A stretch of 62,356 nucleotides of DNA, the filler included, from Sanchytrium tribonematis (Eukaryota): assembly GCA_018985235.1 (NCBI GenBank). It is 4 parts of 4 records of this genome, joined end to end, with 100 filler letters (N's around TTAATTAATTAA, not from the genome) between each part and the next. Parts side by side here need not be neighbours in the genome. Positions count along the whole stretch, not along the records: positions 1 to 15,570 come from JADGIG010000147.1; positions 15,671 to 31,200 come from JADGIG010000148.1; positions 31,301 to 46,791 come from JADGIG010000149.1; positions 46,892 to 62,356 come from JADGIG010000150.1. One strand, 5' to 3'. A model generated the notes under the pieces. It had not been told where the DNA came from and ran no database searches. It worked only from the letters and a program-made list of their open reading frames with translations. The translations under genes were made by a program, and so were the position numbers. Positions 7,747 to 61,100 of this stretch are shown here, piece by piece (positions within the stretch are counted from its first letter, which is position 1; each line of letters starts with the position of its first letter).

Positions 7747-9976
7747 ATGTTGTTTTTTCATTTATTAATATTTGGAGCTTATAACGCAGTTCTTGCGAAT
7801 CAAAACAATATTGGACACACTTATTATCAAACCACGCTTCCCAAAAAAACTTTAAGATCAGATTGTCAAAAACTTTGTGATGCTGATTCATTTTGTTACG
7901 CTTTGGTGATCTCAACTGCGAACGAATGTTTTTTAAAATACTATTTTTCACCGAATGAAATTGTTGCATATAGCGGTGCGAATTTGTACACCAAAACAGT
8001 TACAACTGGAATGAGTTTATTTTTTTGGGCACGCGGATATTTGACCCAAGTTCATGTCCAATTGGTTGATACATCGGCAGTTTACGTTGCAACCACAAAT
8101 ACTGCACAACTGTTAGCGACAAGTTTGGATGAAAAGTTCTTTTTTAATGATATGCTCTCGGTAACTGCTATTGCATCAGCCCAAACAGCTGTTAAATTAA
8201 AATATGGCGCTTCAAACGATATAGTTGAACACGAAAAAAGTGCTTACAGTTACCTTATATATGAAGCAACGACTATGACAGGCAATTACGACGCAATCAC
8301 CGGATCTTATGTGACTCTCAAAATGTGCTTTGATTTTTGTTTGCTCAGAAATTGTAAATTTGTATTCTATGACTTTAGCACATTTTATTGCACATCATAT
8401 ACCGAAGGCACTGAAACTGCCGTGTCTAATGTTTTTGCTTTAAACCAAACCAGGATGCTGAATTTGCCAATATTAGATACTAAATTATCTGGTACACCTT
8501 ACTTGACAAAATCTACCACCTATGAGGAATGCTATAAATTATGCTTTATAGATTATGCCTGCAATGCAGTAGCTTTTAACGGAGTGACAACCGATTGCTC
8601 ATTCTTTACTACCTACTCTGGTCAAATTCCTGCGGCAGGATTTTTTGCATGGAAAATTATAAACAGGCCGTCTAAGACTACTTCAATTGTTTCTGCGACC
8701 AAAACATCATCTGTTTTATTGACAACAAAATTGTCTACCACTACTTCGCCAATTATCAAAATATCAACCCTAAAAGTTACAACTTCCGTGGTAGCATCTA
8801 CAGTTGCAACAACCATCATTATACCAAAAACTGGAACTGCGTTGTATACTACAAAATATTCTACCCAAGTAGTTGCCCAAATTGCATCTCAAACTATTCC
8901 ATTACAGACCACCCCAAAATTGGGGTTTTCTTCTACATCGCCAACCTTAAAGATAAATTCTATATCCTCTTCTATCATTTTGACCACAAAGGCAATTTTT
9001 ACTACACCAAATACATTGACGTCACAAAATCCGGCAATCTCTCCACTGTTAACATCTTCATTAAAAGTCACCACAGCACCAGAAACTTCCAGTAAACTTT
9101 CCGCTGTGACTACACAATCTTCGATTACATTGCCATTATCAACTTCAAATCCAAGCGTTTTCTCTAAATTGACAGATCTTCCAACATCTACAACCTTGAC
9201 ATCTAGTTCTGAATTTACATTAGACTTACCAACATCTGATTTGTATGAGTCATTTTATACAACAGAAGAATCGTATTTGGAGAGCGGATTAGATGATTAT
9301 GACGATGATGAATTCTTGCCTTTTACGGAATCCATTGCATCTGAAACTGAAGATCCAATTCTGCCAAATTTGATTATCGAAGACAGTTCGAATGCGACTT
9401 TTATAATAATTACAAGAAAATACTATTATAAACAAACAACTGCAACAACTCTTGGGCATTTAACATCAAAACTACCTCTTGCGACATTCAATTATATATC
9501 TCTTACTACCGAGTCTAAAAGCACTCCAACTTTCAATATTGCAGTCCAAGGATCTGGTAATTTATATTAATTTAGACGCTTCCACTGGTATAACAATATA
9601 TATCGCAATGGGCATCATTTTACTACTTGTTGTATTAGCTGGAATAATTAAATTGTCCATGATGTTGCACAAAAAATTGAACGAACGGTATTCAGTTAAA
9701 GTTGAATCTTCAGATCTAAGCAATGATGAATTAGGTTCAAGGTTACAATTTGAGTCACCAAGTTATTCTTTGAATTCAGATAGACCCTTGGGAGTAACTA
9801 ATAATGTGCCACCATCTTTGGCGAAACGAGTACCAAATTCTAAGCTTTCTAATTCGAAATCTCGTGGAAACTTACCATCTGGGTCTCAATTAAAGCTTAA
9901 TATCTCATCTGAGAGTTTGGATAGTTTGGCAAGAAATCAAAAGAAGCCATCTGGTCTAAGGAACGAACATGTCTAG
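7747..9976 (+). CDS. Tandem paralog of the PAN/Apple type I membrane protein; two exons 7747-9556 and 9576-9976
   Basis: ATG at 7747 gives MLFFHLLIFGAYN, matching the paralog's MFLSLVSIFGAYN. Removing intron 9557-9575 joins AVQGS to DASTGITIYIAMGIILLLVV and restores the TM and tail (YSLNS, PSGLRN) shared with 5898-7634. Confidence 0.8.
9557..9575 (+). other. 19-nt GT-AG spliceosomal intron (GTAATTTATATTAATTTAG)
   Basis: Excision restores the frame to a TM and tail homologous to the neighbouring paralog. Confidence 0.85.
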
Positions 9977-10007
9977 AAGTGCTTAATTAATTTGAGATAA
10001 AATAAAT

Positions 10008-22560: not shown

Positions 22561-23559
22561 AAACATTTTTTATTTCTTACAAAAAATGGCAAAATCACCT
22601 TCAAATTTTTCTGAGTTTAGCTCTCAATGTTTTTCTATTCTGAATTTGGATAACATATACAACACATTTAATTTTGGCCAGAGAAAGAAATGTTTAATTT
22701 AAATAAACAAAAGAATTCCACATACGGAGTAAAAATCATTAAGCAAACTGATCAGAATTCAGATAATTCAGTTGCTAATTTGTCAGCGTAGCTGACTTAT
22801 GGATTTGGTAGAAAATGCTTTGTTGAAAGCTCCCATCAATTAAATAAACGAGATATTTGTTGTAAAAAAAGCATACAGATACAGAATTGATTAAGAAAAA
22901 TAGTCAATATGATCATTTATATACTAATTGGGCAAGTTAATAGTACTCCAAATCCTAAAGGTGAATATAGAGTTAAACAGATGATAAACAGAATCCAACA
23001 ACGTATTTGTGCGATAAAAGCGATAATTAAAATTTTGTAATTCAACTGTGTCAAAAATCTCGAAGTATAACGATTGAAATAATCAGGTCTTATTGTTAAA
23101 GGGGATTATAATTTCTACCTTGATCTATCCTGATAATCGAGATATATATTGACTATTATAAGTAACAAAATTTATCACCCCAAACTATGGACTGAATTAA
23201 CTGATGAATATAGACATAAGCTTGTAGATAAAATCGTAAGCGTATACAAGAATTGAAATAAAGAAAGGGCCAGTGGACTAAGAATTGATAAATTTAATAA
23301 TTTCATTTTGGGGGTGGTCAAAATCCCCTTGACAAATGTTAAATCATTCGAATATTTTTTTACTGGATAAATAATGCCTCCAACTATCTTCTGACTTCTT
23401 AAATGAGCTTTTGATGCTTTATTACGGGTGGATTATAAAAATTGGATTATAAAAATTTTAAAAAAATGCATTTATAAAAAGCTTCATCAATTCATATGAT
23501 TTTTATTTATGCATTACTGAAAATAAAGCTCAAATCAACAGTATATTGTTAGAAAGAAC

Positions 23560-24825
23560 TTAATCTGTAAATGACTTCTGCAATAATTTTTCAAATATTT
23601 GAAATATCTCATTTTCTCTTAAAGACTTGAAAATGGTAGAATGAGCAATATCAAGTTGACGCGTATGTAGAACCACAAAATTCATGGCATCATCATCACT
23701 CAATAATTGAATTTGTGGTTTGTAGGAATTGACACATTTTGCAATATATCCCAATTTGGACTGAATATTAATCAAATATTCATCTTCTGATTCATCAGTT
23801 TCAACATAGGTAGTTGAACTACCACTACAAATCCAGTAAGGTCAGCAAATCGGTGCTCTGAGAAATGAGCAATTTGTAAATTGGATTTTCGCATTTGCTG
23901 GGTAAATGATTTTAGCAGCTTAACACCATCCTTAGTACTAGTAGTATTACCAGCACTTTATATGGAACAGTGTGGGTAGGCATATATAAATTATTCTGAT
24001 TTGCGATCATTTGTTCGCAATCGTCTTTGGTGGAAAATGCACGTGTATCTGGGAAAAAAGGAAGATTGATTTGCATGGTATTGTTTTCCCAGGTAAACTC
24101 GTGTTGAAATGAACTGGCAATGTGAATCACGACTGGAGTCGGGAGAAGTTGTTTTTCTAAAGTGATTTCCATGGCGTGCTTAAACTGATCTGGGGAATTT
24201 AAATGATGCGGATAAAGATTTTTGGGTTGGTTTGGCCTGTTTTGGTTTGGGTTTGGTAATAAATGCATTTTTCTTGGCGGCTTGGGAGTGAAGCATTTCG
24301 AAACAATGTTCTTAACTTTTGCAATTTTGATAATTTGAATATTTTTATATTTGGCACATTGCATGCCAAAATCACAAATGTGATGTCAGTAATGTTGCGC
24401 AAATATCCAGGGGCAATCCATTTTTAAAAATGCCTAAATATTTCAATTGATTCCTTTTCTGATTGATTGCGTTTATCTTTTTATTAAACATTGCAGTAGT
24501 ATCAATTCCTTGAATGTTAATAATGTATCCCAAATAATGTTGAGATTGTTTAGTAGTAGGAATGTTGCAAATTGTTGTATTTTTATAATAATTCCTGGTA
24601 ATAATTATGGATTTATGATAGTTTAATTCTAAGCCAATGTCATTCAGTTCTGTTTTTATTTGATTGATTGCCATTTCCAGCGATTTTTTATCTAGCGCAA
24701 CGGCACAAATATCATCTGCATAAAAAATTAATTGAAACATGTCATTGTCCAGTCCATAAAGATCCAGAAGACAAAACCCAAAGATTGAAGGACTAAAAGG
24801 GGATCCTTGAGGTATGCCTGATTCA
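23560..24825 (-). mobile_element. Degenerate non-LTR retrotransposon (RT 3' half and C-terminal region)
   Basis: GIPQGSPFSPSI (24785-24820), FYADD, IGLELNYHKS, YLGY. Frameshifted. Post-RT segment resembles the intact element at 46965-51898. Confidence 0.8.
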
Positions 24826-25789
24826 GAAAGATGTTAAAGTTTCAAACTTTTCGCAATATAAAAGTTGGCAATTAAATAATTTTTTGATCGTCTTTAACGC
24901 AATAAGGTGGCATGAAATTGAAACTCTCTCCTCGTATTTTTCTTCTGACTCCAAATTGATCTAATAACCATGAGTGAGATGATCAAAACATTACAAACAA
25001 TGATTGTGGAATCGATTAGATTAATGATCTTTCTGAACTCACAAATGAATCATGTAATATTGCACAATTGGGTAATCACGTGGGAAGTGATAATAGTGAT
25101 GGAAGATTTCTAGAAGATGGATTTGGCAGGCAAAAAATTACTTAAGCACGTAAAAGAAATTAAAAACATTAAAAATAAAATTAAAAAAAGTCCTGCTTCG
25201 AAAATGAATCCACCCACAGGAGAGGTCGAAGGCGGTTCCTCAGTTGTGGCGCAAGTAATGGAACAGCTTGGGGATTCTTCGGGGTCTCTGAGACTTGCGT
25301 TAAGACCACCTCTTGAGTAAGCAATTGAGTCTGATAACATGGGCAGTTCAGAAGAAAATGCCTTAGTTGAAAGAGAAGGATACTTAGAGTCAAAGAATTA
25401 AGTCCAACTACGACAACAGTTCAAATCCCTCCCGAGGAGATTCAAGTGACTGTAGTCAACCAAGAAGAGGATCAATGGCGAACAGTCTAACCTCTAACAC
25501 TGCACCACCACCTGTGAACAGCTTGGATGTTATACAAGCTTTCAAAGATGACAAGTTCAATTCACGTACAAGTGACACGGATGATGAAAGATTTAATCCG
25601 GTCGAGGAAATTGCTGAAGACATGAATTTTGGTCCTGATTTTGAAGAATTAGAGCTTTCTTATAAACTTGTTAACATGGGATTGGCACTAGGGGCTGATC
25701 TTAAGGCCAGATTCTTTTCACTACTGGAAAGTATTAAGAAATTGTTTAAATTTCAAAGCAGGTTGTACCACTGCTGTGAAGCATGTAAT

Positions 25790-27443
25790 TAATTGTAAAG
25801 GTGAACCTTATAGACAAAAACAGTATTGGGCATCTAAAACTCAGCAGGAACAGATGATTATATGATTGAGAAAGGAATCATTGTGCCTTCTAGCTCAGCA
25901 TTTGCAAGTCCTATTGTGATGGTTTCTAAACCCAATGGGAAATGGAGATTTTGTGTTGATTTTCGTAATTTGGGGTTTGGGGATAAGGTTAAGGCAATAA
26001 GAGATTTGCCTATACCTAAAACGCAGAAAGCGTTGAGAAGATTTTTAGGAATAAAGTACGATACAAGGGAAAAGGAGGCAATGGCTATAATGTTTGGCTT
26101 AAAGAAATTTAGACCATATTACTACCCTAATCATGTCACTGTTATGACAGATCATGGTAACCTTCGATGGCTAATGGCGCATCAACAAAAAGGCCATTTA
26201 GCGCGCTAGCAAATGAATTTGCAGCAATATGAATTTACAATCTGTTATATTAAGGGTGTTAATAATCCCGTTTTAGATGTAGTCGAGATTCTGGTGAAGA
26301 AATAATGCAAATTAATTCTTATGATTTTAGAAAAAGGAACCTGTTCAACAGAAGGATAACATCTGAAAAGAAAGACAAAACTGTCCTTACAAAGACCTTG
26401 TTAAGAAAAGCAAGAAAAGACAATTTAAGAAAAAAGAGGGGATAGTATACTGGATTTCAGATGGTAGTACTGAGAAAATTTATATTCCAAAACACCTGGT
26501 TCAGACAGTACCAAAGTGGTTCATGAATGTCCATTGGTTGCTCGCTTTGAAAGAGAACAGATGAGCTTTCACCTAAGAAAATATTATATTCCTGGGTTGC
26601 AGAAATTCTGTAGAAATTGTGTAACTTGTGCAAAAATAAAAGGAGTTGGTGAAAAAAAATGTCCTTAGCACACGGAAACCGGCAATGGTTTTTGATAGGA
26701 TTTACATTGATATTGTTGGACCTATCGAGGATTTGTCAAATGACCCAGAAGATGAGATGCGGTATATTCTCACAATGATGGACAATGGAAGTAGGTTTTT
26801 AAGAGCAGCACCCATTCCAAATAAAGATATGGAAACCATATTTACCGCATTCTTAAATGCATGGGCGAGTATATTTGGTTTTCCTAAGGAGTTTATATCT
26901 GATAATGATCGAACGTTTGATGAAGTCATTAAAATGTTAGAAGATAAATATGCTAAAATTCAAAGTACTATATCATATTCGCCTGAGATGAATCCAATAG
27001 AAAGAGTTCATAAAACTCTAATGACAAGGATTAAGGCAATTAGGCACACCCAGAATCTAAAATGGATTGAGTGATTAGCTATGGCATTATATGGCTATAA
27101 TAGCACAAGACATAGAATTGTTGGGTATACGCCGCATGCACTAGTCTTCGCAAAGTTGTCAGATAGTGGCATGGATTTAGAAAATTTAAAGGCAATTCGT
27201 GAGCATGCTATGGATGCAGCTTGGAAAGCTCGGAAAGGAGTTGTGGACAAGTGCAATAGCAAAAGGGCTGTGATTGATTTACAGATTGGTGATAAGGTAT
27301 ACGTGGTAAAAACAATTCCAGGTCGTAAGCTAGAAGATAAGCTGGAAGATGACATGGTTACAATACTTAAGTTCTTTGGAAAAGATTCAAAGACTTTGAA
27401 AGAGAAAAATGGATCTCAGTCCATTAAAAGCCGCAAACTGTAA
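25790..27443 (+). mobile_element. Degenerate Ty3/Gypsy pol (internally deleted RT, RNase H, integrase)
   Basis: GIIVPSSSAFASPIVMVSKPNGKWRFCVDFRNL; ALRRFLG; EKEAMAI...VMTDH; CVTC zinc-finger half; FDRIYIDIVGP, SDND, NPIERVHKTL. YxDD region is deleted. Confidence 0.92.
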
Positions 27444-27472
27444 TGGAGGCATTTTTAAAAAAAGAGGGACGT

Positions 27473-27678
27473 TGTAGTTCATACTCCGACGGGAGCAGTT
27501 TTGACCCTGTAGACCCAAGGGGGGTCACGAGGGGATTTGAGAGATTTATGATTGACTCTTACATATTACAAAGACTTGTGATATATAAGGAGCCAATCAA
27601 AAGAAGGACTAAAACACATATAAAGGGGACATTCCTCAAATAAATATCTATGTCAACGGCTTCAAACTTTACGCAACA
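27473..27678 (+). repeat. Putative LTR (206 bp) between PPT and PBS
   Basis: Preceded by polypurine AAAAAAAGAGGGA; starts TGTAG and ends CAACA; contains TATATAA and AATAAA; followed by A-TGG. Only one copy is in the window. Confidence 0.65.
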
Positions 27679-27769
27679 ATGGTTTAAAAGGAAAAAATCA
27701 ATAAATAAATGAAAGCGTTGAAAATGTCACGATCTATTATTTCGGGATACAGTTTTAGAGTGTCACCAT

Positions 27770-28790
27770 ATGGCCCGTCTAAAAACAAGTATTACAAAGG
27801 ATTTGGATTATTTTGAAGATAAATTGGAGATTTGCGATATAGATATGACAAATGATAAAGAAATAATTAGATTATTAAGGAAGTAAAGATGTACGGATTT
27901 CACAACGCCTAACGACATGACAATGGTAAATTGACTTACTTAGCCTTTAAAAATGCAATTGATGAGAGATTATTTTGGAATTGCAGAATGGAGACTGATG
28001 AGGAAGTGGCATCATATGCCGCTAGATTTAAACGATCGGCAGAAGATTCTGGTTTAGACAATTTAAACTGTCTGTTAAAAAGGAGATTAGAATATCGTTG
28101 AGTGCAGTTCAGTATGGTACTTTAAAAAATGCAGTTGAGTCAGCAAGAATGGTGAAGCAATGTGTAGAGGAGTCTCGCGAGAAGAATAAATTTGTACACC
28201 AACATCCAAAATGCGGAAGATGTGGAAGATTTCATGCTGACCAATGTTGGGAATGCACTGTTTGCGGTGAGTTGGGACATAAATCGTTCATGAGTCGAAA
28301 GCGAAAAGTGAAAGAAAGAGACTTGGAAAAAAAACAGGGTCCGGCTATCAATTTGATTGAAGAAGCTGCAGAAATACTTGCGGATAAAGGTGCAGCTGTC
28401 TCGGTAGTCAGTCGAGAATATATTGATATGAGAAACCTACCAATGAATAGATCCAAGGGATATGTGAAGACTGGGAATTCATTAATCAAGATATTGGGAA
28501 AGTTGATCTGGAACTGAAACTGCCCAATAGAGGTGCAATTATTCAAGAATTCAAGGTATTAGAAGGTACATTCCCTCAACGACCAATAATTGGGCGAGAG
28601 GCGAAATTGAGTCATTTAAATGCAAAGGAAAATAATGATTTCATGTAAATCATTTGCAAGAATAAAGTGAATAGAAATAAGCCAATGGATCTGCAACCAA
28701 TTCATTTAGAATTAAAACCAGATGCCGATATTTCAAAGGTGAGATGAAATTCATTTAGAGAGAGACATGAATTTTTCAAAGAAATTATGT
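27770..28790 (+). mobile_element. Degenerate Ty3/Gypsy gag-protease
   Basis: Zinc-knuckle remnants CGRCGRFHADQC and CTVCGELGH; aspartic protease-like LADKGAAVSVV; PIHLELKPDA pre-RT segment. Confidence 0.75.
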
Positions 28791-28799
28791 TTGGAATGT

Positions 28800-29350
28800 T
28801 CCAATAAGTTCCAATTCTACTGGCGATCAATTAACTGATGATATTAGTCCTGATCACCTAGTATATGCACACTGGGTGCATCACAAAATAATAATACCTT
28901 TCTTTTTTCGTCAATAAATTTCAAATTTAAATACCACCAACCAGCCATTAAATGCAAAAAACACTTTGTAAATCGCAATTGCACCTTATTGTTGAATTGC
29001 AACAAATAAGTTGTGCCTACTTTTGGATCTAATTTCAATGTATCGGACACAATTATGCTCTTTTTAATTAATGCAGCATGATGATGGTATTATTGTGGGT
29101 GTAGAATTTTTATTGTCAAAAAATGCTTCAATTAAAATAACATTTAAATTTCTTTTTAAGGTTATGCCTGCTGCAGAAAGTAAGAGAAATGTACTGGTTG
29201 GGATGATTGTACTCTCATTGATATTCCATGTGTCACCTATTGTTTTCCCAATTTTAAAGAACTTAATTTTGAATATTTATCTGCAGCGTATACGCATTGA
29301 AAAAATTAAAATACGATATGAGTCTGTTTAAAGTATTTGGCCCGATTTTC
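28800..29350 (-). mobile_element. Degenerate pogo/Tigger-like (DDE_1) transposase
   Basis: KRKVLLFCDAPSVH resembles RKVLLLLDNxxxH; upstream WNINES resembles (Y/W)NxDET. Confidence 0.5.
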
Positions 29351-30359
29351 CTTCAAATAATTTTTAAGGATATTTTTGTACCTGCCACTGCAATGAGCTT
29401 TAAACTTGGGAGTTATCAAAAAATAAATTTGGAATTATAGCTGTTTTCAATTCCAGCTAATTTTGCACAAGTTTGCCAAACTTTCCAACTGATAGACAAA
29501 TGACCGGTTCCATAGTAATTAGCATACAAATACTTGTTTGAAAATTTGTGCTTGACATAGCGTTTAAGAATTCTTAAAGATTGTTTTTCACTATTATTTA
29601 GGAGTTTTATAAATTTCGAAAGGCTATCTCAATTTTTATCAAAACATTTGGTTTTACGCTTTTGTTTTGTATCGAGGTTTTGCCGTTGTTTCAAGGAACT
29701 GCAGTTGAGGCAGACAAATTCTTGTATTTCGGGTTTAATGAAAAATGATAAGAAATTTAACTCAACATGGCAATCTAAAAATAGCTTTAAACTAAGCAAC
29801 TATGGCTGTGTGTACACTGGATAATCTCACTTTTTGGAAATTAACCGATTACTTAAAGTTTGTTTGTTTAAGACTCTGCATTTTTTGACTATTTAGCTTA
29901 TTGTTTTTTTGAATGTTACTTAAGCTTTTATGACCTATAATTTTCGAAACTGTTTTTCTCCAATTTTTTGTATATTGTTTTAACTTTGCTTTATTCTTTA
30001 AACTATTTGTCGTCAATTTTAACTTTTTTAAGTTTGATTGTCGATTCTTACATCTATTAGTTTTTTGATCACATATTGCTTTTTCAAACAAAATTTTTTT
30101 TTTCAATTGTCATAAATGTTTCCTGACCAGTCAATTTAAATCTTAAATACAAACTGTTCCAAAGTCACATTTGACATTTGCTTTGTTTTCGCAATCAGTT
30201 GGTTTCGAAATTATTTAGATTTGAGGTGTATTTGATTACATGAAAAGTGAGATCCATAACATGTCAAGTGACTTGACCTGTGATAAATAGCCAAGAAACT
30301 GCACTTTTGCTATATATTTACCATTTTTGCTAATCGTAGGAGTCAATTGTTTTGTATTT

Positions 30360-31200
30360 TTAACCCTTTGAGGAAAAGTCGTATGTCGCCAAATTTGGTC
30401 ATTTCATTTCTGAAGTTTTGTTTCAAAACCAAATTTGTCGAGATAACATGTCACCAAATTTGGTAAAGATGTCGACAAATTTGGTAATATTTGAGCATAT
30501 TTAAACAAAACAATAATTTATTCAATATTATAATCTAAATACTTGCCTTCAACTGTTCAATTCTTCTTCCGTAGATTTAAAACACAAGACTTCTTTAGCT
30601 CTCTTACTACACATAAAGCACTTTGGGCGCTTTTCTTTCATTGATCGTGTACTAATAGGTATATGCATGAAATCCTTTTTCAAATATTTAATCAGCCGTC
30701 TTCGATCAACAGAACTTGAATTATTCTTGCTAATTCTCTTCCTGATTCACATTGACGGAGGTTTTCACACTGGTAGCAACGAGGCTGTAGTTGAAGGTGT
30801 AATGGGTGAAATGGGTTCACTACTCAAAAGCGTTGAGTCTAGAAAAGAGAAATCAGTACTTAGAGGATGATCCAAAGCTGATGAATTGTTTCTTTCATTA
30901 ATTGAACTTCTACCATTTCTCTGACAACCTCTAGACCAGATTTAACCATTCCAATAGAAAGTTGTTTGAGGAAATCTACAAAAGATAGCCAGGTATATCG
31001 ATAACGGTCTTGATCCATTTATAATGGGTGTCGCATCCAACACGTTAAATCAAAGCGTGATTGGATGTTATTTAGATCAAAATGATCTAATTAATCTAGT
31101 CAATTCAAAACAAGATCCAAGTCCTCTAATAAGGCTTGGATCCCAATCAGATGATGGCGCATGCTTAACTAAACAAAGCATGCGCTCTAAAAAAAGGTAT
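30360..31200 (-). mobile_element. Degenerate piggyBac-like element, 3' end
   Basis: TTAA|CCCTTTG terminus at 30360; subterminal CAAATTTG repeats; minus-strand FNVLDA..IN, FVDFLKQLSIGM and a C-terminal Cys remnant KCFMCSKR...LCF. Confidence 0.55.
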
Positions 31201-32608: not shown

Positions 32609-32959
32609 ATTATATATAATTAATATTTAAATTCAAAGTACAAATTCTAAACACTAGATGAAATTGTTTGAATAATCTGTTAGGTATAAAAATTTGAACT
32701 ATTGATAATTCAAATGAACCTCATTGTTTTTAAAATTTTGAATCGATTTGGAGCAATGCTGCGGGGGTGTAATCAATTGGACAAATTGTAAACTTATTGT
32801 TTCTCTTGACTATACTCTTAACATTTCTTAGTTGACCTCTTGTGCTTCTCGCAGAAAAAAAAAGGTTTTATTGATTGGCAATTTAGAATAAGTTGCCGGA
32901 AGCAAATTCCTGCAAATAGCTTTTCTTGAATATTTAAACTCAGCTTTCAATTTGTAATA

Positions 32960-34954: not shown

Positions 34955-34993
34955 AACAATAAACAACACTATTAAAATCATTCAAATTTTATT

Positions 34994-38229: not shown

Positions 38230-39568
38230 TTACTTCTTCTTAACTAGTTGCATTAAACCATCAGTTGACATACTTTTGGGTCTCTCGATAGGCATTCCTA
38301 GACCTCTGCTAAGAACCATACCGGCGCAACATCCAATACATCTACTAACACCAAACAAGACTGTGTAATAAGATTGCTCAACAAGTCCGTAATGTCTTAG
38401 TAAAATACCTAAATGAATAAAATCAACCAGAATGAGCGTCTACATTAGGCCATGGATTTTTAGTTTTTCCATGTTCCAATAGCACATCAGGTGCAATAGA
38501 ATAAATTTGAGACGTCAATTTGAATAGTGGGTCATTTGGAAGATGCTCTAACGCAAATTCACGTTGACTCTGATATCTGGGATCCGTCTTTCTTAATACG
38601 GCGTGTCCATAACCAGGAAGAACTTTTCCACTCTTCAAAAGTCCCCAAATGTAATCTTTAACTTGGGAGTCGCTTGGGTTGTCCCCGACTTCGCTCTGCA
38701 TTTGAAGCATAAAATTAAGAACTTCTTGATTAGCAAGACCATGAAGTGGTCCAGCAAGCCCATTCAATGCAGCACTGAATGAATAGTACGGATCAGACAA
38801 TGCAGAGTTTACAAGATGTGAGGCATGTGCAGATACATTTCCACCTTCATGATCACTATGAATCAGCAAGTAAAGATTGAGCAACTTGATGAAATTTGGA
38901 TCTGTGAAACCTAACATGTTAGCATAGTTGACGCTCATGGTGGAATCACTATGCATAGCATGTTTTCCATCCTTGTAAAGATTTCTATAGATTCTGCTAG
39001 CAATGGTGGGACACTTTGCAATTAAATTCAAAGAGTCTTCCAAAGTGTATTCCCAGTAATCACTTTTGTTCATTCCGGTTGCATATTTGCTTGCAAAAAC
39101 AGATTCTGATTGACAAGCTAAAACTGCAATTGAAAATTGAGACATTGGATGTAAACTTGATGGACAACTATCAATTAAATCTTCCACATGCCCAGGGATT
39201 TGCATTCTCTGTCCCAAGTCCTTAGCAAGTTCTTCTACTTGCGGCTTTGTAGGAACTTCATTTGTTAAAAGGAGCCAAAGAACGCTCTCAGGTTGATGTT
39301 CCAAAAGATCATTTTCTTTCAATTTTTGTTGTAATTCGGGAATTGATAAGCCTCTGAATCTAATACCTTCATTTGCATCCAATACAGAAGGTTCCCACAA
39401 CATTGTCTTTAAACCACGTGATCCGGAATAAATGGCGTTGACATTAATTGAACCAATATTTGCTTCACCATGCTGTTGTCTAAATTGTTTGACAGTTTGT
39501 GAGTGCTTTTGCAAATGACTTGAAATGCTAGATTTCAATTGAGAGGTTCTTAAAAGTCTGGAGATCAT
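38230..39568 (-). CDS. CIT1: Mitochondrial citrate synthase; two exons 39568-38428 and 38408-38230
   Basis: [45 protein letters not shown]. After intron removal it continues ILLRHYG...[10 protein letters not shown]...IERPKSMST. Mitochondrial presequence-like N-terminus. Confidence 0.96.
38409..38427 (-). other. 19-nt GT-AG intron (GTTGATTTTATTCATTTAG)
   Basis: Excision is required to recover the conserved citrate synthase C-terminus with no indel. Confidence 0.93.
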
Positions 39569-40149: not shown

Positions 40150-40163
40150 ATGATTCTCCTTGA

Positions 40164-41882
40164 ATGCAAAAGACTCACTCTCTGAATTCTAAACAATCTT
40201 TAATTTTAAATTTGGTCAACAAAGGAGAGTCCGTTTTCTATTCAGGACACGCAGGAACTGGAAAATCGTATCTCTTACGAAAGATTATAGCAAATTTAAG
40301 GCAAACGCATTTTACTGAAGTGGGAGTGACCAGTAGTACTGGCATATCAGCTGTTAATATCGGAGGGACCACATTGCATAGTTATTTTAAAATAGGTACT
40401 GGAGAATCACCTATAGAGGATTTAATCGCTAGGAATAGAAAAAACACGAATTGGTTACACACAAAAGCTTTGATCGTAGACGAAATTAGCATGATTGATG
40501 CGGCTCTGTTTGACAAATTAGAGCAAATGGCAAGAGAATTAAGAAATAATGATGAGCCTTTTGGTGGAATGCAATTGGTATTCGTAGGTGATTTTTATCA
40601 GCTTCCACCAGTCAAAAACGATGCTAGATATTGCTTTGAGGCTGATTCTTGGAAAAGATGTATGAAAAACTCAATTTTGCTCAACACTATTTACCGACAA
40701 ACAAATTCGAAATTTGTCAGCATGTTAAATGAAATTCGTAACAATAAGGCTTCCGATGAAACTATCAAATTATTGCAGCGCCAATCCTCCTTGAACATTT
40801 GTGAAAAAGATGGAATTAAATGCACCAAGTTATATTCTCGAAATAAGCAAGTCGATCAGCTCAATGGGGTAGAGTTGTCCAAACTACCTGGTAAAGAAAG
40901 GACATTCACCGGCGAGCTTAGTGGTGAAAGTAGTTTAAAGAAATTTTTACTTCAAAATTCAAGGGCCCCGCTAAATCTTCCCCTCAAAGTTGGTGCTCAA
41001 GTTATGCTACTAAAGAACATCGACCCTTCAGAAGGGCTGGTCAATGGACTTAAAGGCATTGTCACAGAACTAGAGGATGAGGATCAAGCCCCTTTTGTGA
41101 AATTTGAGAATGGCAGAAACATGTTTGTCAAGGCACAAGACTGGACTATTTCTGATCCTGTTGACAAGAAAAAGACTGCGACATATAGTCAAATCCCTTT
41201 AAATTTAGCATGGGCCTGTACTATTCACAAATCCCAGGGACAGACAATATCAAAATTGGAAGTTGATTGCTCTGGGATTTTTACCTATGGGCAACTCTAT
41301 GTAGCTTTATCAAGAGCCCAGGACTTAAACAATCTAAAAATTATGAATTTTCAAAGAAAACATATCAAAACAGACCCAAGAGTCTCGGAATTTTACAAAA
41401 AAGTCAAAAATAATGAAACTACCGAGACCAACTTTCTGGAAATACATGGTGCCTTGCAAGACTTTGCAGAGGAAAAAATTGAATCACCCAGTCTGAAGAA
41501 GCCAACATTTTTTCAGATGCAAAAGATTAGATTAAGAGAAGAGAGGGAAGCCATGAGCTCAAATTCTCAATCTGTTACTGAAAACAGATCCGATAAATCG
41601 AAACAAATTAAGAAACCTAGAGCCAAGAAAGTTAAATTACAAAGTCAGAATAGAGAAATTATAGATCTGTCTAATATTTCTAAGGTACCAAATGAAAATT
41701 TTAACAATATGGGTACTTCTTATCCTGATGAAATAAGCATCATTAGTAGCCGGCCAGCTAATGGGAAAAGATCTGTTTTAATCCAACATATTAGTCAAAA
41801 ACGAAAGTCAACCTCTGAGTCGCCACAATTGACAAAGAAAATACGTGAATCTGGAGCCCAAATTTATTTAAAGCAAGAATGA
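40164..41882 (+). CDS. PIF1: Pif1-family 5'-3' DNA helicase
   Basis: GHAGTGKS, STGISA, DEISM, GDFYQLPPV, YRQ, LKVGAQVMLLKN, LAWACTIHKSQGQT, YVALSR. Confidence 0.93.
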   Translation: MQKTHSLNSKQSLILNLVNKGESVFYSGHAGTGKSYLLRKIIANLRQTHFTEVGVTSSTGISAVNIGGTTLHSYFKIGTGESPIEDLIARNRKNTNWLHTKALIVDEISMIDAALFDKLEQMARELRNNDEPFGGMQLVFVGDFYQLPPVKNDARYCFEADSWKRCMKNSILLNTIYRQTNSKFVSMLNEIRNNKASDETIKLLQRQSSLNICEKDGIKCTKLYSRNKQVDQLNGVELSKLPGKERTFTGELSGESSLKKFLLQNSRAPLNLPLKVGAQVMLLKNIDPSEGLVNGLKGIVTELEDEDQAPFVKFENGRNMFVKAQDWTISDPVDKKKTATYSQIPLNLAWACTIHKSQGQTISKLEVDCSGIFTYGQLYVALSRAQDLNNLKIMNFQRKHIKTDPRVSEFYKKVKNNETTETNFLEIHGALQDFAEEKIESPSLKKPTFFQMQKIRLREEREAMSSNSQSVTENRSDKSKQIKKPRAKKVKLQSQNREIIDLSNISKVPNENFNNMGTSYPDEISIISSRPANGKRSVLIQHISQKRKSTSESPQLTKKIRESGAQIYLKQE

Positions 41883-44800
41883 TTTTGTTAGTTGAAATTG
41901 CTCCTGCTCGGGCAGTATTTTTCTCATTTTTTCCAAAAATTCGTTAACACTCATGTACTCACTAATACTGCGTCTTTGTGCAACATTTAAGGCATGATCT
42001 TCAGAAATATCAAAGTCCCAAACATCATCATGTCCTAAATAAATAATAATTACCACTTAAATTCGTAATGGTAGCACCTGGAGAAAACGTAATTCTCACA
42101 CTATGCTGATCATTTCTTTCATAAACCTCGATACTAATTTGACTTAAATAATTCATTTCATCAATTGAGCTCCTTGGGACTTTCATTCTCCAACCAGCTA
42201 AATAAATTAAATTAAACAAAGCATGCATGTGACTTTCTTTGGTGACATAGACTCTTGCAAAGCCACCACTGACAGGTAATAGGTTGACCAAAGAAGAAGT
42301 AGATGATGAAGGAGAGATATCTCTAGCATCAGTATTGGCATGTGGTTGTATTAATTCGAATATGTCCCAAACTAATTTGTGTATTAAAGGACCTGCAACT
42401 TGTTGGCCAATTAAAAACTTTTCTTCACTTGTGAGCCCATATTCACTTGGAGCTACGAATGCAAATAATTTTGAAGATTCGCGGTATAACAATCTCACTA
42501 ACCTTTTCGACTCATTTTCATCTGCATTGGTTGATATATCACTCGTCAAGCTGTCCATTCTTTCGTGTACATCCATGCTTTTTCGATGATTTTGATTGTT
42601 TAATAGAATATCATTCATTTTTGTTTTAAAATATTCTTCATATTGTTCATTGGTTATAGCCGTACTAGGAGGAGATTGAGTCATTCTAGAGTTCGTCACT
42701 GGACTGGTTGCTTGGGATGGACAAGAAAAGATGCATTGAAAAAAGGTACGGTTATGAAGAGCATCATAAATTAAACTGTCAAAAAGCTCACTGATTTTAG
42801 AGATGTCTACAGTTTCCTTTTGTGGATCAAATTCTTTAAAAATTCTTTCCCATCTTTCTCGAAAAAATTGAGGGGAATCGCCAGGGCAGCACCAATTTAA
42901 TTGAATCAAATCAATTTCAAGTATTTTAAAATTGGTGACCATATTTTCCTTCAGTCTGGACAAAAGCGACCGAAGAGAGTCTAAGCAACTAGATGGTTTA
43001 TCTAAGAGGCATTTGGGAATAGGAGGAAGAGCATTTCCCTCAATTCTTTTCAAAAAAGCATTTCTAGCTTCTTCGTTCAGTGGCGGAATGTCATTGATAT
43101 AAGCTTGTAGTGCTTTTTTTGACTTGTCCATCAGATCCTTGCCACCAAATGAGTCATCGAGCATATCTCGGTCTACATTTATAAAATTCTCGACATTTTC
43201 ACGTTGCAAAAATGCTTTAGCAAATGTTTTTGCAGTCTGAAGTACTCTGTCTTCAGCAGCGCTATAAATTTTGACATCTTCCAATAAAGTCTTGTTCATA
43301 ACACTGATATCATTTCTAAGCGATTGACCCAATTCTTGAGAATGGTATTCGTTAGCATGAGTAAAATTGCCACCCCACTTCACCACACACTGAACTTTGA
43401 CGACAGTATTTTCGACCATTTGGTGCGCTTTAATTTGCACTTTAGTGCCTTCTAATCCTTTTTTTCGATTTATAACGTCAATCATGTGTTTGATTTTACT
43501 AATTTCGTCTTGGAGTTTGGCAGGGTCATTTGCATCTAAACTGTTTTTGGCCTGGTGAGATGGTCTTTTATTGTGTTCTCGTTTCGGACTCACATTGATA
43601 CTCAAAGGATCAATTTCATCTTGCAAAACCAATTTGAGTTCTTTGGCTTTGTCTTCCAGCTGCTGAAGAGCCTCTTTAGCAGCTTTAACTACTAAATCTA
43701 AACCTTCTTTCTTCTTAATTATAACCTCAGTCTTAACATTGCCCATAATGGCAATTATTTTAGGATGGCGTAAACTGAATTTTGATTTTAATTTGGGTGT
43801 CCGGTCCCCATGCCTGACAATGGTTATATAACCTTTTAATGTCCAAGGAGTTTCTTTAATTAAGTGCGGCTGACGTTTAGCAGCCTTCAAAAATAAAGTT
43901 TTCAAAAATGATGCACATTTGTTGTAGTAGCTCTCATTTCCTTTGACAAATGACCAGCCATTTACATCGATGACATATGAGTCACCGTCTACTCTTAAAA
44001 TATCAAAACCACAGATTCGTTGCCCGAATGTAGCACTGATTCTCTTAGCCATTTCAGCTTCGTCTGGCGAGAGTTGAGTGACATATCTCAATTCTTTTCC
44101 ATCAGGGTTGCGTCGAACAATCCCATCTACAACTGGCGATTTTCTAGTTTCGGCGTGAGCCATATTTTTACCAATTGTATATACTTTAACGTCTACAGAG
44201 TGGTCAACTGTCAAAAATTCCTCGTATATATAAGCTCGATCTGTTCGAACTTCCCACATCTCGGGCACATATTCACTTGACTTATTGCCTATTTTTCTAA
44301 ACAACTTACGGGCTCCACCTCCACTTTTTGAACTAAAATAAATTATTAAATTATGGTCTTCGGAGTCAACGGGTTTCTCAGCAAATGGTTTTCTTAGAAG
44401 ACGACCATTAACCTTTATAGTGTCGTAATCGATTTGCTCGATAGTATTTCCCATTGTACAATGATCTGTATGATAGTTCAACCAATCAATTGTATCTAAA
44501 TCCAATCCTGAATATTTTAAAACACTAGATTTAACCTGCTCACTAACGTCTGGTCCGCCATCTCTGTTAACGATCAGCCTCTTTGGAGTTGATACGCTTT
44601 GGAAATCCAAAATACTTAAAACCAATCGACGGTCCCACAAGACTTTTTGTAGAACAAGATCATTTACCGAAAATGGCTTGACTAAATCAGTATAATTAAT
44701 AACTTTATCAAGAGGAAATCCTGTGCTGAAAAATGATACTAAAAAGTCACAAACGGGCCAATTTGTAATTGGTTCTTCCAAGATAAGTTGTTCACCGAAA

Positions 44801-44904: not shown

Positions 44905-45053
44905 GGGGATTGTTTCAAAGAGTGGTGATGTTTATTTCTATTTCCGAAATAAATGGCACATGTTAAGAATCTTATCGCTAAAGATGTATGTGAATCAGAC
45001 TAAAGCCTCACTTAAAAAGGTGAAAAAATTCTTTTTTGAAACAACTTCTCAAT

Positions 45054-45686
45054 ATGACGCGATTTGTGTTCCACCTCAACAGTGAGCAGGAACAGGAGTT
45101 AAGCCAGTTGGCCGTAGATGCAGAAAAGGAGGTTTTAAGCTATTTAAATGAGCCAAGAGAAGATATACCACCAAACCTGGCTCAGTTGCTATTGGCAAAG
45201 CACGAACTGATGCATGAAATTCAGGACGACTCGAACGAAAGATTTGAGGTATCTGTTGAAAATTTAAACAAAGGCGTGAATGAACTCAAGGATCTTAAAT
45301 GTCTGGTAGTTCAGATGGCTGGAAATTTTAATTCCAAGCTCGATGGCATGTCTGACAGTTTAAAACGAATTGAAAGCGAAAATCAATGGCTACGCTCTGA
45401 AATTCAAAAGATAAGACACGACAGCTTTTTAATGCGAATAGAATTGTTAAATAGAACTGCAAGTCCTGGAAATTATGTACATTTCAAGCCAATTCTCACA
45501 GCTAGTGGACCCGTGTACTACCAAAACAATAAGAAGATGCTCTTCGAATATTATGTGCAGCTCCCATACATGTTACTTAATGGATACATGGAATTTTATT
45601 GCATACCAGCAATTGATAAAACACAACAAGAAAAACTCAAGGCCCTTAGTGATCATCTTGGGCTTAAAACTTTTTATATGTTTTAA
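45054..45686 (+). CDS. Coiled-coil protein with a Mug135-like C-terminal domain (tentative)
   Basis: Coiled coil followed by YMEFYCIP...KLKALSDHLG. ATG at 45054. Confidence 0.55.
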   Translation: MTRFVFHLNSEQEQELSQLAVDAEKEVLSYLNEPREDIPPNLAQLLLAKHELMHEIQDDSNERFEVSVENLNKGVNELKDLKCLVVQMAGNFNSKLDGMSDSLKRIESENQWLRSEIQKIRHDSFLMRIELLNRTASPGNYVHFKPILTASGPVYYQNNKKMLFEYYVQLPYMLLNGYMEFYCIPAIDKTQQEKLKALSDHLGLKTFYMF

Positions 45687-45850
45687 TAATTAATAAACAA
45701 ATTATACCTTTAGAAGGATTTCTTTCAAGTTAAATCAACTCGGCAAATCTCCTGTTTTGGCTATGCTCATGATCTAGATTCACAGATTTAATTAAAAAAG
45801 TAATTGTCTATAAATGCATATACAAGTCAATTTAAAACTTTGTGAAAGTA

Positions 45851-46762
45851 ATGGACTGGGCTGGCTTGCTAGTTCTTGGATTCATTTTATTTTCATTCGT
45901 TTCTCCAACAACATTGTTGTTAAATTACAAAGAACCATATTTTACATACAGACTGCCTAAATGCCTATTTGTACTTCATTTTTTGACTTCAGGGTTTTTA
46001 CTAACATTAGCTAGACCACACACATTTGGGAAACCATGAAGTTTAAGCAATGGGATAGATATCACTTATTGTTTAGTAATTGAGTACTTGGGAATTATGG
46101 AGATAATTACAACATCGATATTTATACAATACAGAAGTCTCTTGCTTTTCGCTTCAACAATTAGATCTATCTTAAAGAGCAACGATTTTTATTTGTTTTC
46201 TTTTCTTGGCATTCAGAAAAGAATTGAAAAAAATTCGATTTTAAACCGACTGGTTTTAAAAAAATACAAGTTGCCAATAATTTTCGTTTATTTATTAGCC
46301 ATGACCGCGATATGTGCAGCTTTAAATTACTGTGTAAATGGACAATGGATTGGCAATATCGATTATGTGAATGCTGACCGACCTTTTTGTATATATTTTA
46401 AGAATTTAGAATCTGTATTGATATTCTTAGCAACTTATTTCAATGTTGTCAACATGGTTCTATTAGCTTTACTATGGAGCATGAATGATAATTTTGATAT
46501 CTGCAGCGAGACCAAATGGTATTTCATGACTTTTTTGTTTTCATCCATTTTATGTACAGCAATTTACTGCATACCTATAGTGGATGTCATGCACGATATT
46601 ATCTTGAATTGGGTATTAGCGTTTTCTTTGATGTTAAAACAAATCATTCTTTACCATTTTCCAGTTTTTCATTTTTTTTACTTGAGAAAAAATCAAGTTG
46701 TTAATGACATCACTAAAACAATTGAATATGCGTTGACAAATCAGCGAACTTTTGGCGAATGA
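45851..46762 (+). pseudogene. Multi-pass membrane protein, 7TM-RGS-like, interrupted by an in-frame TGA (46037-46039); runs close to the contig end
   Basis: Two same-frame ORFs with about 7 hydrophobic segments, DNFDICSE and FPV motifs, then IEYALTN, which resembles the start of an RGS domain. Confidence 0.45.
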
Positions 46763-46791
46763 TAATTTATTAATAGATTTCCCGACATTTC

Positions 46792-58106: not shown

Positions 58107-58186
58107 AGCACCTAGAATGTTGTATTTGGTATTTGGACCATTATTACAAGTGCCTATACCACCAGAACAAGTTGAATAAATATAAT

Positions 58187-61100
58187 TTATTTTTCTTGTA
58201 ATTCGGCTGCTTCTATCAAGTACTTCTCAGCTTTCTTTAAATCAGGAGTAACACCGAGACCCTTTTTGTAAATAACACCAAGACGATGTAGAGAGTCTTT
58301 AGCCAATGAAAATTGCCCACAATCTTTATACAAATCACTAAGATCAATTAAAGAATCAATGTCTCCTAAATAAACAGCAATTTGGTACAATTTCATGGCT
58401 TTTAAGACATGTTTCTCGCATCCAAATCCATTGCGGTGGAAGATGGCTAGTGAATGAAAGCCTTTGGCACACCTTAAATTTGCAGCTTTCAATGCATATA
58501 AGAAAGCTGTTTCATAATTTTGTACCACCTCTTTCCCTTGAAAATAAATAGCTGCCATCTGGCAATATGCGAGACCACATCCCAATGCACCTGATCGACT
58601 GTAGAATTCTATGGCCTTTTCAATTTCACTTTCTTTTTCTTGCATGAATCCCAAATAATATATCGCAAAGGCATGATTTTGTTTTGCACCAATTTTAAAA
58701 CATTCTAATTTATCTTTTTCATTTTTGAGATAAATCCCCAACATTGTTGCAGCATATCCCTCTTTTTTGATTGTGAATAATAATTGGATTGATGTAGCCT
58801 TATCTGCTGGTTCGGGTTTGCCATCGTAGCACATTATTGCGGTCAAGTATACAGCTACTGGTACCGTTAATGCTTTTAAAATATTCATGGCTTTTTCATA
58901 TGATTGCTCACAGCCAATTCCAAAAAAAAACATGATCCCATGCATTAAGCGATCAGACTTCAATTTTATGTAAATTTGTACAAATTCGGGACCATTTGTT
59001 TGATATTTCTTATAACAAGTCGATAAGAATCTGTTAATGGTCTCCATATCAGCAAATTCAGAAATAATTTGCAAAAAGTACTGCTTAAATTTTTCTGGTT
59101 CGTTGACTGAACTTTCTAATTTGAGTTCCAATGGTAATTTTATGGCTGGTCCCACCAATTTAATTATATCAGCCTCTCCAACGGATGGCACATCCATGAG
59201 AGTTTCTATCAAATTTGTTAATTCTACAACTTTTGCTGTTGAGTCTAATTTACCATATTTAACAGCATTTTTATAATACTGCAATGCTAAATCTACATTT
59301 TTATTGACACCGTATCCTTCCTCGTACATTGAAGCAATATAATTATGCGATTCAGGAATATTTGATTCTATGGCTTTTTGAAACGATTCCAAGGCAAGAG
59401 AATAATTTCTTTCACACCCGTAGCCGTGTAAATACATGACACCCATGTTGTGATATCCCATCGGCATTTCATATTCAATGGCACGCGTGAAACACTCGAT
59501 TGCTTTTTTGTAATCATTTCTTTGGTAATATATGCCACCTAATCCAACCCAAGCCTCATGAAAACCCTTGAAATAAGAAAGCTCATAAAAATGAATGGCT
59601 TGCCCTTCATTTTTTGTACATCCGGTGCCATTTTCATAGCAGGATGCCAAATAATAATATGCCATGGAAATGTTGGATTTAGATGCCAAAGAGTAGCAAT
59701 TGAATGCTGAAGGTTCTTCTTCGGTTCCATTTCCACATTCATGCATATATCCTAAAAATACTTGTGCAATTGGGTCCTTGCACGATTTAAACATTAGAAA
59801 AGTTTTAGAATCATCAATTTCATGACCAATTCCAAAATACTTGCAAATGGCGGTGAACAATGTATCTCCAGCACTGATTCTCAATAAAGATAAATCGATT
59901 TCTTTCAAATTTGAAATAAATGCATCGATAGTGGCAATCGAAACTGTTTGGAGCAATTTCATTAATGATGGCTTGAGCAAATCAATATTTACAGAAACAA
60001 GGGCCTTTTTAAATATCATCAGCATAATCTGAAAATTAGGCGTGTTGAGTGACAAAAAATCATTCTTAAAGTCTTGTGGTTGAATGGGTTCGATTTTTTG
60101 GGGATTATTTGAAATGGCATTTGCATCGACTTTTCTATCTTTTTCCTTCTTAATTGCTTGATTTTGGATTGTGGCACTCTCAGAGTCGATATGTCTAGTT
60201 GGTGTTTGAGGACTATCATTTTTGGAGTCAATTTTGATATCTTTGACAACAATTGATCGAATTTCAACTGGAGAGGTAGGCTTAAAATGACTTTCTAAAA
60301 GAAGCACCATTTTTTTCATTATTAATCTGTCTTGAGGCTTTGAGGCCCAAGCTTGGACCATTACACTAAATAAAGGTTCTTTGATAGTCTTTTCAGAATA
60401 TGGTCTCAATCCTTGACACACTGCTTCTTTCATATCACTGGATCCAAAATCTTTCCATGGAATTGTTTTTGTAGCAATTTCCCCTAAAACAATTGCAAAT
60501 GCGTAAATATCTCCAGCAAATGGAAAATTTGACCGTGCTTCTACATATTCTGGTGTGATATGCCAGTACTCTGGTGCTCTCCATTGGTCTGTTCCGATAG
60601 TCCTACTTTTGCCTACAGAAGACATATTTGAAGAATTTGTTAATTTAGACATTCCTTCATTAATTTCAATTACCTAAATCAATGATGCGTGGGATGAATA
60701 ACTTATCAAGCATGATATTGTTTGATTTTATGTCATTATGCGCAATGCCATTCAAATGCATATAAGCCAAACCACGGGCAATCCCGAGTTGAATTTTATT
60801 AATTTGGTCTTCTGGTAACACCTCGTCATAATATAACCAACTCGAAAGTGTATGGTTGTCTATGTACTCTGTGACTACTCCCAAATTGCCATTTAGTGCA
60901 GTAACTCCAAAAAATTTCACAATAAAGGGAGATTTTTGTAACATTTCAAATGCTTTGACTTCCTTTAAAATGGATTTGTTCTTTTGAAATGCATCTGACT
61001 TGATCTTGTAGCTGCCAGGATCTTTAAACGGTATATCCTTCATACGCTTCACAGCAACATGCAATCCTTGCCATTCTCCCATGTAAACTGCGCCAAATGA

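What the first reader, a model, noticed from the sequence alone, without database searches (positions are those of the whole stretch)
9557..60673. All four reconstructable introns are exactly 19 nt with a fixed-position branch motif
Seen: GTAATTTATATTAATTTAG (9557-9575 +), GTTGATTTTATTCATTTAG (38409-38427 -), GTAATTATTATTTATTTAG (42035-42053 -) and GTAATTGAAATTAATGAAG (60655-60673 -), on three different contigs. All are 19 nt, phase 1, preceded by an exonic G, with T at position 6 and ATTNAT at positions 10-15 (candidate branch A at -6). Each excision restores a conserved protein sequence (citrate synthase DAHSG|ILL, kinase DLG, Vip1 C-terminus, paralog TM). Established: introns this small are known from chlorarachniophyte nucleomorphs (about 18-21 nt) and heterotrich ciliates (15-16 nt); typical fungal introns are much longer. 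Inference: a length-measuring, probably reduced spliceosome in a fungus-like nuclear genome. Standard gene finders would mis-annotate these genes.
Basis: partly seen in the sequence, partly recalled or inferred. Interest (0 to 1): 0.85.

Follow-up and report, generated by a model that had tools for sequence, protein, structure and literature searches.

The report
19-base introns in a sanchytrid fungus
Five genes in this stretch of DNA from an alga-parasitic (sanchytrid) fungus are interrupted by 19-base GT...AG inserts whose removal restores the reading frame; they are likely the shortest spliceosomal introns yet noticed in a fungus, but no RNA was available to show the splicing.

Summary
Confirmed and extended. 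The four 19-nt GT-AG segments are present and in phase 1. For citrate synthase, the kinase and Vip1, the 19-nt cut is the best of 17, 10 and 119 alternative excisions against homologues. The fourth junction is not fixed by homology. All 5 motif matches of 19 nt extend an ORF, against 2 of 42 at other lengths. The window's citrate synthase groups with the sanchytrid Amoeboradix. A relative's read-through peptide decodes to a 20-nt insert with A at -6, so 19 is not a phylum-wide constant. Public protein entries are split or truncated at all five sites. Best reading: U2-type introns with the branch A fixed at -6. A 'reduced spliceosome' is not shown: the A. gromovi annotation lists most core factors searched, with no Slu7 or Prp18 row. 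No RNA or whole genome was available. No paper on sanchytrid nuclear introns was found. The scan earlier noted longer tiny introns in Rozella and Neolecta, none in sanchytrids.

The parts
9557..9575 (+). 19-nt intron, phase 1, in a PAN-domain, S/T-rich single-pass membrane protein gene (exons 7747-9556 and 9576-9976; 736 aa spliced)
   Evidence: Exon 2 is homologous to the C-terminus of the single-ORF tandem paralogue 5886-7634. Junction chosen by motif and as the only GT-AG solution of 40 nt or less, not by homology.
38409..38427 (-). 19-nt intron, phase 1, in mitochondrial-type citrate synthase (exons 39568-38428 and 38408-38230; 439 aa)
   Evidence: Best of 17 GT/GC-AG excisions against 107 homologues, 434.9 vs 352.9. 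In-frame TGA inside the intron. Contig record 7 of run X1 identical across it.
42035..42053 (-). 19-nt intron, phase 1, in Vip1/PPIP5K (exons 44904-42054 and 42034-41868; 1005 aa)
   Evidence: P0260 (83% identical) reads ITNLSGHDDV. 19 nt is best of 119 excisions, 602 vs 580 for the 22-nt donor. Record 7 identical across it.
58072..58090 (+).
   Evidence: The only further 19-nt motif match in the window, and it extends the ORF. Exon 2 ends 8 nt before the stop of the convergent gene. A 22-nt donor at 58069 is also in frame. Exon 2 alone had no PDB hit. Record 4 identical across it.
60655..60673 (-). 19-nt intron, phase 1, in the DLG motif of an MLKL_N-kinase-Sel1 gene (exons 61787-60674 and 60654-58187; 1193 aa)
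   Evidence: Best of 10 excisions against uninterrupted paralogues P0123/P0124, 207.5 vs 172.5. A paralogous contig of run X1 is net 19 nt shorter over this region, 194 vs 175 letters.
9565..9571 (+). Example of the candidate branch site (intron positions 9-15, A at -6); the same register holds in all five introns
   Evidence: Reads as the yeast-type UACUAAC branch consensus with C>U at both C positions; 4-6 of 6 pairs with the recalled U2 motif, two of them G-U. Inferred, no lariat data.

Best explanation
The five 19-base GT...AG inserts restore their reading frames when cut out and are likely genuine U2-type spliceosomal introns of a sanchytrid fungus, predicted to be recognised as one compact unit with the branch A held six bases from the 3' end. 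Shown: the inserts, their ends, phase and shared pattern, frame restoration, exact junctions for three genes, and the sanchytrid placement. Inferred: U1/U6 read GTAAnT (T at +6 kept, G at +5 lost). U2 pairs with an AT-shifted branch site through G-U wobbles. There is no room for a polypyrimidine tract, so the AG would dock directly, three bases after the branch motif. The 14-nt lariat loop would be near the smallest the lineage's spliceosome tolerates. Deletion pressure in a genome that is about 91% coding in the three gene-rich contigs would have shrunk the few surviving introns to that floor: 19 nt here, 20 nt in an Amoeboradix-type relative.
For: Ends, phase and motif in 5 of 5. Intron cores are 0-13% G+C against 31-38% in flanking exons. 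Exact junctions from homologues for citrate synthase, kinase and Vip1. A paralogous contig is net 19 nt shorter. A second assembly of DNA run X1 carries four of the inserts without gaps. The motif found a fifth site. Sanchytrid clade support 1.0. Three of 3 Amoeboradix-type citrate synthase ORFs break at LRKT|DPRY, and P0121 decodes to a 20-nt insert (score 4.63 vs at most 0.84 for 39 other offsets), compatible with GT...AG, T at +6 and A at -6. Core spliceosome genes are annotated in A. gromovi (PMC8371127 supplement). Precedent for a -6 branch A in Stentor (PMC9505925) and for Slu7/Prp18-independent exon ligation at short branch-to-3'SS distance (PMC3683925).
Against: The sample is 5 introns in 28 gene models plus one inferred in a relative; longer introns elsewhere in the genome are not excluded. 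Two junctions (membrane gene, Der1) rest on the motif, and Der1 has an in-frame 22-nt alternative. Three other ORF ends have AT-rich GT-AG extensions of 29, 46 and 54 nt that lack the motif and were not disproved. Three of 5 branch sites mismatch U2 at the position before the A. The U1/U2 motifs used are recalled, not this organism's. Run X1 may be the window's own source data, so it is no independent biological support. It is unknown whether P0260 comes from DNA or RNA.
Confidence: 0.85

Rival explanations
1. The five are real introns but only the short tail of an ordinary, broader length distribution, so there is no tight length constraint.
For: n is 5. A relative has 20 nt. E. cuniculi keeps a 76-nt intron beside its ~25-nt ones (PMC6349667). 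Long introns near gene starts would be hard to see.
Against: No gene with a Pfam domain in the window needs a longer intron. No hidden in-frame GT-AG insert in Vip1, citrate synthase or ALG11 against sanchytrid relatives. Five of five at one length is unlikely from a broad distribution.
Confidence: 0.1
2. The inserts are assembly or amplification artefacts, or frameshift lesions in pseudogenes.
For: The window also holds a real broken kinase next to a LINE and an in-frame TGA in another gene. Only one DNA run holds the sequence.
Against: A second assembly of run X1 has four inserts with 0 gaps. Random lesions would not share GT, AG, T6, ATTnAT, phase and length. Exon 2 of Vip1 matches P0260 at 54 of 55 residues. 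Relatives have their own 20-nt insert at another site.
Confidence: 0.02
3. The 19 nt are removed or skipped without the spliceosome (Ire1/tRNA-ligase-type splicing, ribosomal bypass, or DNA excision).
For: Ire1-type introns are also about 20-26 nt (recalled).
Against: No shared hairpin at the junctions; z-scores -0.89 to +1.18 in 5 of 5. GT-AG ends and a branch-like motif are spliceosomal signals. The inserts are not TA-bounded and carry no shared terminal repeat.
Confidence: 0.03

Closest known systems
Chlorarachniophyte nucleomorph introns (Bigelowiella natans, 18-21 nt; PMC6009652, PMC10245619, PMC2483917; passages read)
   Same: Same size, AU-rich, GT-AG; a 'caliper' mechanism has been proposed there.
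   Different: That is an endosymbiont relic nucleus with about 3 introns per gene and only splice-site signals identifiable. Here it is a fungal nucleus, intron-poor (about 0.12 per kb of CDS), with a recognisable branch motif.
Stentor coeruleus 15-16-nt introns (PMC9505925; passages read)
   Same: Branch A at position 10 of 15 or 11 of 16, i.e. -6 from the 3' end. U-rich branch region, most core spliceosome retained.
   Different: 3-4 nt shorter, thousands of introns, weak branch consensus, ciliate.
Mikrocytos mackini 16-17-nt introns (PMC10245619; abstract and passages read)
   Same: Parasite, few introns, very narrow length range, conserved sequence.
   Different: Rhizarian with a strongly reduced spliceosome (17-19 proteins); the A. 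gromovi annotation keeps U1-70K, U2AF35/65, SF1, Isy1 and Prp17.
Microsporidian (~25 nt, E. cuniculi) and Rozella (~30 nt) introns (PMC6349667; passages read); myxozoan introns, lowest median 22 nt (PMC13644364; parts 1-2 of 3 read)
   Same: Ultra-short GT-AG introns in reduced opisthokont parasites.
   Different: Those are longer, and the first E. cuniculi set is strongly 5'-biased. Here 4 of 5 lie in the last fifth of the CDS. Sanchytrids are sister to Blastocladiomycota (PMC9730499), whose genomes are intron-richer, so the shrinkage is likely independent.
Constrained branch-to-AG introns of Yarrowia, Trichomonas and Giardia (PMC2483917; passages read)
   Same: No polypyrimidine tract; branch site anchored a fixed distance from the AG.
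   Different: Those keep the C-containing CTAAC/CTRAC motif, and Yarrowia introns are long. Here both C positions read U and total length is also fixed.

Membership tests
U2-type spliceosomal intron | GT...AG termini | tested here: met
   5 of 5.
U2-type spliceosomal intron | Precise removal restores the conserved protein | tested here: met
   Exact for 3 of 5; frame restored but junction not fixed by homology for 2 of 5.
U2-type spliceosomal intron | 5' splice site complementary to U1 | tested here: met
   5 of 6 pairs in four introns and 4 of 6 in one, against the recalled canonical U1 motif; +5 mismatched in all five.
U2-type spliceosomal intron | Branch A in a U2-pairing context | tested here: inconclusive
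   A at -6 in 5 of 5 with 4-6 of 6 pairs to the recalled U2 motif; this organism's U2 and lariats not available; no snRNA in the window.
U2-type spliceosomal intron | Removed from the mature transcript | not testable with these tools
   The one run listed is DNA.
U2-type spliceosomal intron | Major spliceosome encoded in the lineage | tested here: met
   Rows for Prp8, Brr2, SF3B1, U1-70K, U2AF35/65, SF1 and others in the A. gromovi annotation sheet; one U1-70K row in the S. tribonematis sheet. Not tested on the window's own genome.
Ultra-short, length-constrained intron class (Stentor, Mikrocytos, nucleomorphs) | Genome-wide narrow length range under about 22 nt | tested here: inconclusive
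   5 of 5 at 19 nt in the window and one inferred 20 nt in a relative; no whole genome held.
U12-type intron | Extended RTATCCTT 5' splice site and TCCTTAAC branch (consensus recalled) | tested here: not met
   0 of 5 carry either.
Ire1/Hac1-type non-spliceosomal intron | Paired stem-loops at both cut sites | tested here: not met
   No shared structure, none better than shuffles.
Strongly reduced spliceosome (microsporidian/mikrocytid type) | Loss of most non-core splicing proteins | tested here: inconclusive
   Most factors searched have rows in A. gromovi; Slu7, Prp18, U1C and Yju2 have none. A small, annotation-based sample from ORF-only gene calls.

The most novel reading that the evidence does not exclude
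Sanchytriomycota as a phylum carry the shortest spliceosomal introns in Fungi and in opisthokonts: 19-20 nt genome-wide, with a species-specific length. They are spliced by a largely intact major spliceosome that has lost Slu7/Prp18 because the branch A sits directly beside the AG. The class has gone unseen because sanchytrid proteomes were called without an intron model.
Probability: 0.4. Interest if true: 0.8.

Novelty: new member of a known kind. Interest (0 to 1): 0.64.

Why it matters
It would add an independent origin of extreme intron shrinkage inside Fungi, below the ~25 nt of microsporidia and the 22-nt median record in animals. The lineage appears to keep most of its spliceosome. Convergence with Stentor on a -6 branch A points to a general lower limit set by the active site, which snRNA and protein comparisons in two sanchytrid genera can test. 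[quoted passage not shown]

Tried and rejected
No whole genome is held, so no genome-wide histogram or snRNA search. No RNA holder listed; this is no evidence either way. A pattern scan of metagenome contigs for sanchytrid citrate synthase returned 2 loci, both bacterial. ALG11 (4416-5750 -) has a 17-nt GT-AG at its 3' end, but cutting it does not restore the usual C-terminal helix. All 4 sanchytrid ALG11 proteins have a short tail (5-9 residues vs median 18 in 116 others), and no GT/GC-donor cut that keeps the RF motif ends in AG, so it was rejected as an intron. The 20-nt match at 42198-42217 lies in Vip1 coding sequence conserved in P0260. The kinase at 51868-52302 is broken by a LINE end and a frameshift, not an intron. 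Contig 2 (15671-31200) has no 19-nt motif match and reads as decayed retroelement sequence. The first local-alignment ranking put longer cuts ahead of 19 nt for the kinase and the membrane gene because of a fixed fragment window. Anchor-to-anchor scoring reversed this for the kinase; the membrane gene could not be ranked. Der1 exon 2 alone found no PDB match. Rfam found nothing in the window. Four 5'-end intron candidates were screened: one was the kinase intron and three were unsupported. The ESM Atlas look-up gave no answer. No structure or complex prediction was needed.
Full report
Window. The 62,356 bases are four contigs of about 15.5 kb joined by N-spacers. Contigs 1, 3 and 4 are about 91% coding, with 28 gene models that are nearly all single ORFs. 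Contig 2 reads as decayed retroelement DNA (the retroelement label is my reading of partial ORFs). No whole genome is held.

Organism. The window's citrate synthase is 66-68% identical to P0032 and P0009 and about 57-62% to other fungal and animal hits. P0032 is named Amoeboradix gromovi. In a tree of 117 of the 121 proteins (four long fused entries left out; 338 columns), the window groups with P0032, P0009 and P0121 at support 1.0. The deeper placement in this single-gene tree is not reliable. The closest ALG11 hit is also A. gromovi at 67%, and the closest kinase paralogues are named Sanchytrium tribonematis. The window is therefore a sanchytrid; I leave the species and record open.

Observation. 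The four segments are exactly as reported. For citrate synthase, 19 nt is the best of 17 anchor-to-anchor excisions against 107 homologues (434.9 vs 352.9). For the kinase it is the best of 10 against two uninterrupted paralogues (207.5 vs 172.5). A paralogous contig of run X1 spans the region in 175 letters where the window has 194. For Vip1 it is the best of 119: P0260, an 83%-identical relative, reads ITNLSGHDDV, which matches the 19-nt cut and not the 22-nt one. For the membrane gene, exon 2 aligns with the tail of the tandem paralogue, but the junction lies in a low-complexity stalk and is not fixed by homology. A second assembly of DNA run X1 carries four inserts without gaps; the first site was not checked, and X1 may be the window's own source.

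Chance and a fifth intron. That one also has T at +6 and phase 1, but follows C. All 5 extend a long ORF; of 42 matches at other lengths from 12 to 40 nt, 2 do, both alternative donors of the same acceptors. Without any branch motif, 8 of 31 ORF ends have an AT-rich GT-AG extension. Five have a 19-nt solution; the other three (29, 46, 54 nt) would remove the stop of an apparently finished gene and lack the motif. Insertions in Vip1 relative to P0260 are 6, 4 and 2 residues and none is GT-AG. Intron density is about 0.12 per kb of CDS, against 1.30 for Allomyces (PMC8476143, passages; different method).

A relative. P0032 and P0009 stop at AVLRKT, and P0121 runs on in a foreign frame, whereas 114 homologues continue past this motif with consensus DPRY. 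Decoding the tail of P0121 over 40 offsets gives one solution, a 20-nt insertion (4.63 per residue vs at most 0.84). Its codons are compatible with a phase-2 GT...AG intron with T at +6 and A at -6. This is inferred from protein, not read from DNA. The window has no intron at that site, and its kinase and membrane-gene paralogues are uninterrupted, so intron positions turn over within the group.

Mechanism (inferred). Positions 9-15 read TATTAAT, TATTCAT, TATTTAT, GATTTAT and AATTAAT. This is the yeast TACTAAC consensus (PMC2483917, passages) with both C positions as T, giving 4-6 of 6 pairs with the recalled U2 motif, two of them G-U. The 5' site pairs with the recalled U1 motif at 4-5 of 6 positions, never at +5. 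Three bases separate the branch motif's A from the AG, so no polypyrimidine tract fits. Stentor also places its branch A at -6 (PMC9505925, passages). In yeast, exon ligation does not need Slu7/Prp18 when the branch-to-3'SS distance is short (PMC3683925, passages). The A. gromovi annotation sheet in the supplement of PMC8371127 has rows for Prp8, Brr2, SF3B1, Snrnp40, Snu13, U1-70K, U1A/U2B'', U2AF35, U2AF65, SF1, Prp17, Prp22/Prp16-labelled helicases, Isy1 and Cwc25. It has none for Slu7, Prp18, U1C or Yju2 (KEGG numbers recalled, and Slu7/Prp18 also searched by name). The file is cut early in the S. tribonematis sheet, and absences in ORF-only annotation are weak. The data fit a largely intact major spliceosome working at a size floor better than a strongly reduced one. 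Folding of the five junction regions shows no shared hairpin, which argues against Ire1-type splicing.

Annotation. The published sanchytrid proteins were predicted with TransDecoder on genomic contigs, and that paper's main text mentions introns only in a reference title (PMC8371127, passages; likewise PMC10459994). The collection holds the window's five genes only as unspliced pieces: P0001, P0412, P0122 with P0415, P0414 with P0419, and P0413.

Novelty. Ultra-short introns are known: 15-16 nt in heterotrichs, 16-17 in Mikrocytos, 18-21 in nucleomorphs (PMC10245619; PMC6009652; passages), about 25 in E. cuniculi and about 30 in Rozella (PMC6349667, passages), and a median of 22 in myxozoans (PMC13644364, parts 1-2 of 3). 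PMC4435813 (passages) gave no shorter microsporidian lengths in the passages shown. Searches for sanchytrid introns or spliceosomes and for tiny fungal introns (listings only unless cited above) showed no report on sanchytrid nuclear introns. The library lacks most subscription papers, and three supplementary files of PMC8371127 could not be read. The scan's own notes cover Rozella (26-33 nt) and Neolecta (about 37 nt) but no sanchytrid.

Verdict. Very likely real U2-type introns (0.85 for the best explanation), a new lineage for a known phenomenon, and probably the shortest reported in Fungi. The two open points are RNA proof and the genome-wide length distribution.

Noticed in passing
window 45851-46762 +: A multi-pass membrane protein gene has one in-frame TGA (46037-46039) with the same frame open on both sides; no GT-AG cut explains it and run X1 agrees with the TGA. 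Nonsense allele or read-through; TGA also ends other genes here.
   Followed up: partly
window 4416-5750 - (ALG11) and P0141-P0143: All four sanchytrid ALG11 proteins end 5-9 residues after the RF motif and lack the C-terminal helix that nearly all of 116 other homologues have.
   Followed up: partly
window, the five intron-bearing genes: Four of 5 introns lie in the last fifth of the CDS (0.82-0.95) and all 5 are phase 1, the opposite of the 5' bias of the first E. cuniculi intron set; small sample, and 5' introns are harder to see.
   Followed up: no
window 46922-51871 + and 51868-52400 -: An intact 1649-codon non-LTR retroelement ORF (endonuclease, RT, RNase H) whose A-rich 3' end abuts a truncated, frameshifted kinase; run X1 holds several diverged copies.
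   Followed up: partly
window 15671-31200: A whole contig without intact genes, with decayed Ty3/gypsy-like and other RT fragments by my reading, in an otherwise about 91% coding genome.
   Followed up: no
window 10008-12512 - and 32930-34954 +: Two paralogous proteins of 670-830 aa with hydrophobic N-termini and no Pfam family, on different contigs.
   Followed up: no
window 12862-14970 - and 15103-15570 -: A triose-phosphate-transporter domain fused to a polysaccharide pyruvyl transferase, with a tandem paralogue.
   Followed up: no
window 58187-61787 -: The spliced kinase joins an MLKL N-terminal domain, a kinase and Sel1 repeats; paralogues exist in S. tribonematis.
   Followed up: partly
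PMC8371127 supplement file 4, A. gromovi sheet rows 1135-1136: SF1/BBP is annotated as two adjacent ORFs on one contig, as expected if a tiny intron splits it.
   Followed up: no
window 41868-41882 and 58179-58187: After splicing, Vip1 overlaps the convergent Pif1 gene by 15 nt and Der1 ends 8 nt before the convergent kinase stop.
   Followed up: no
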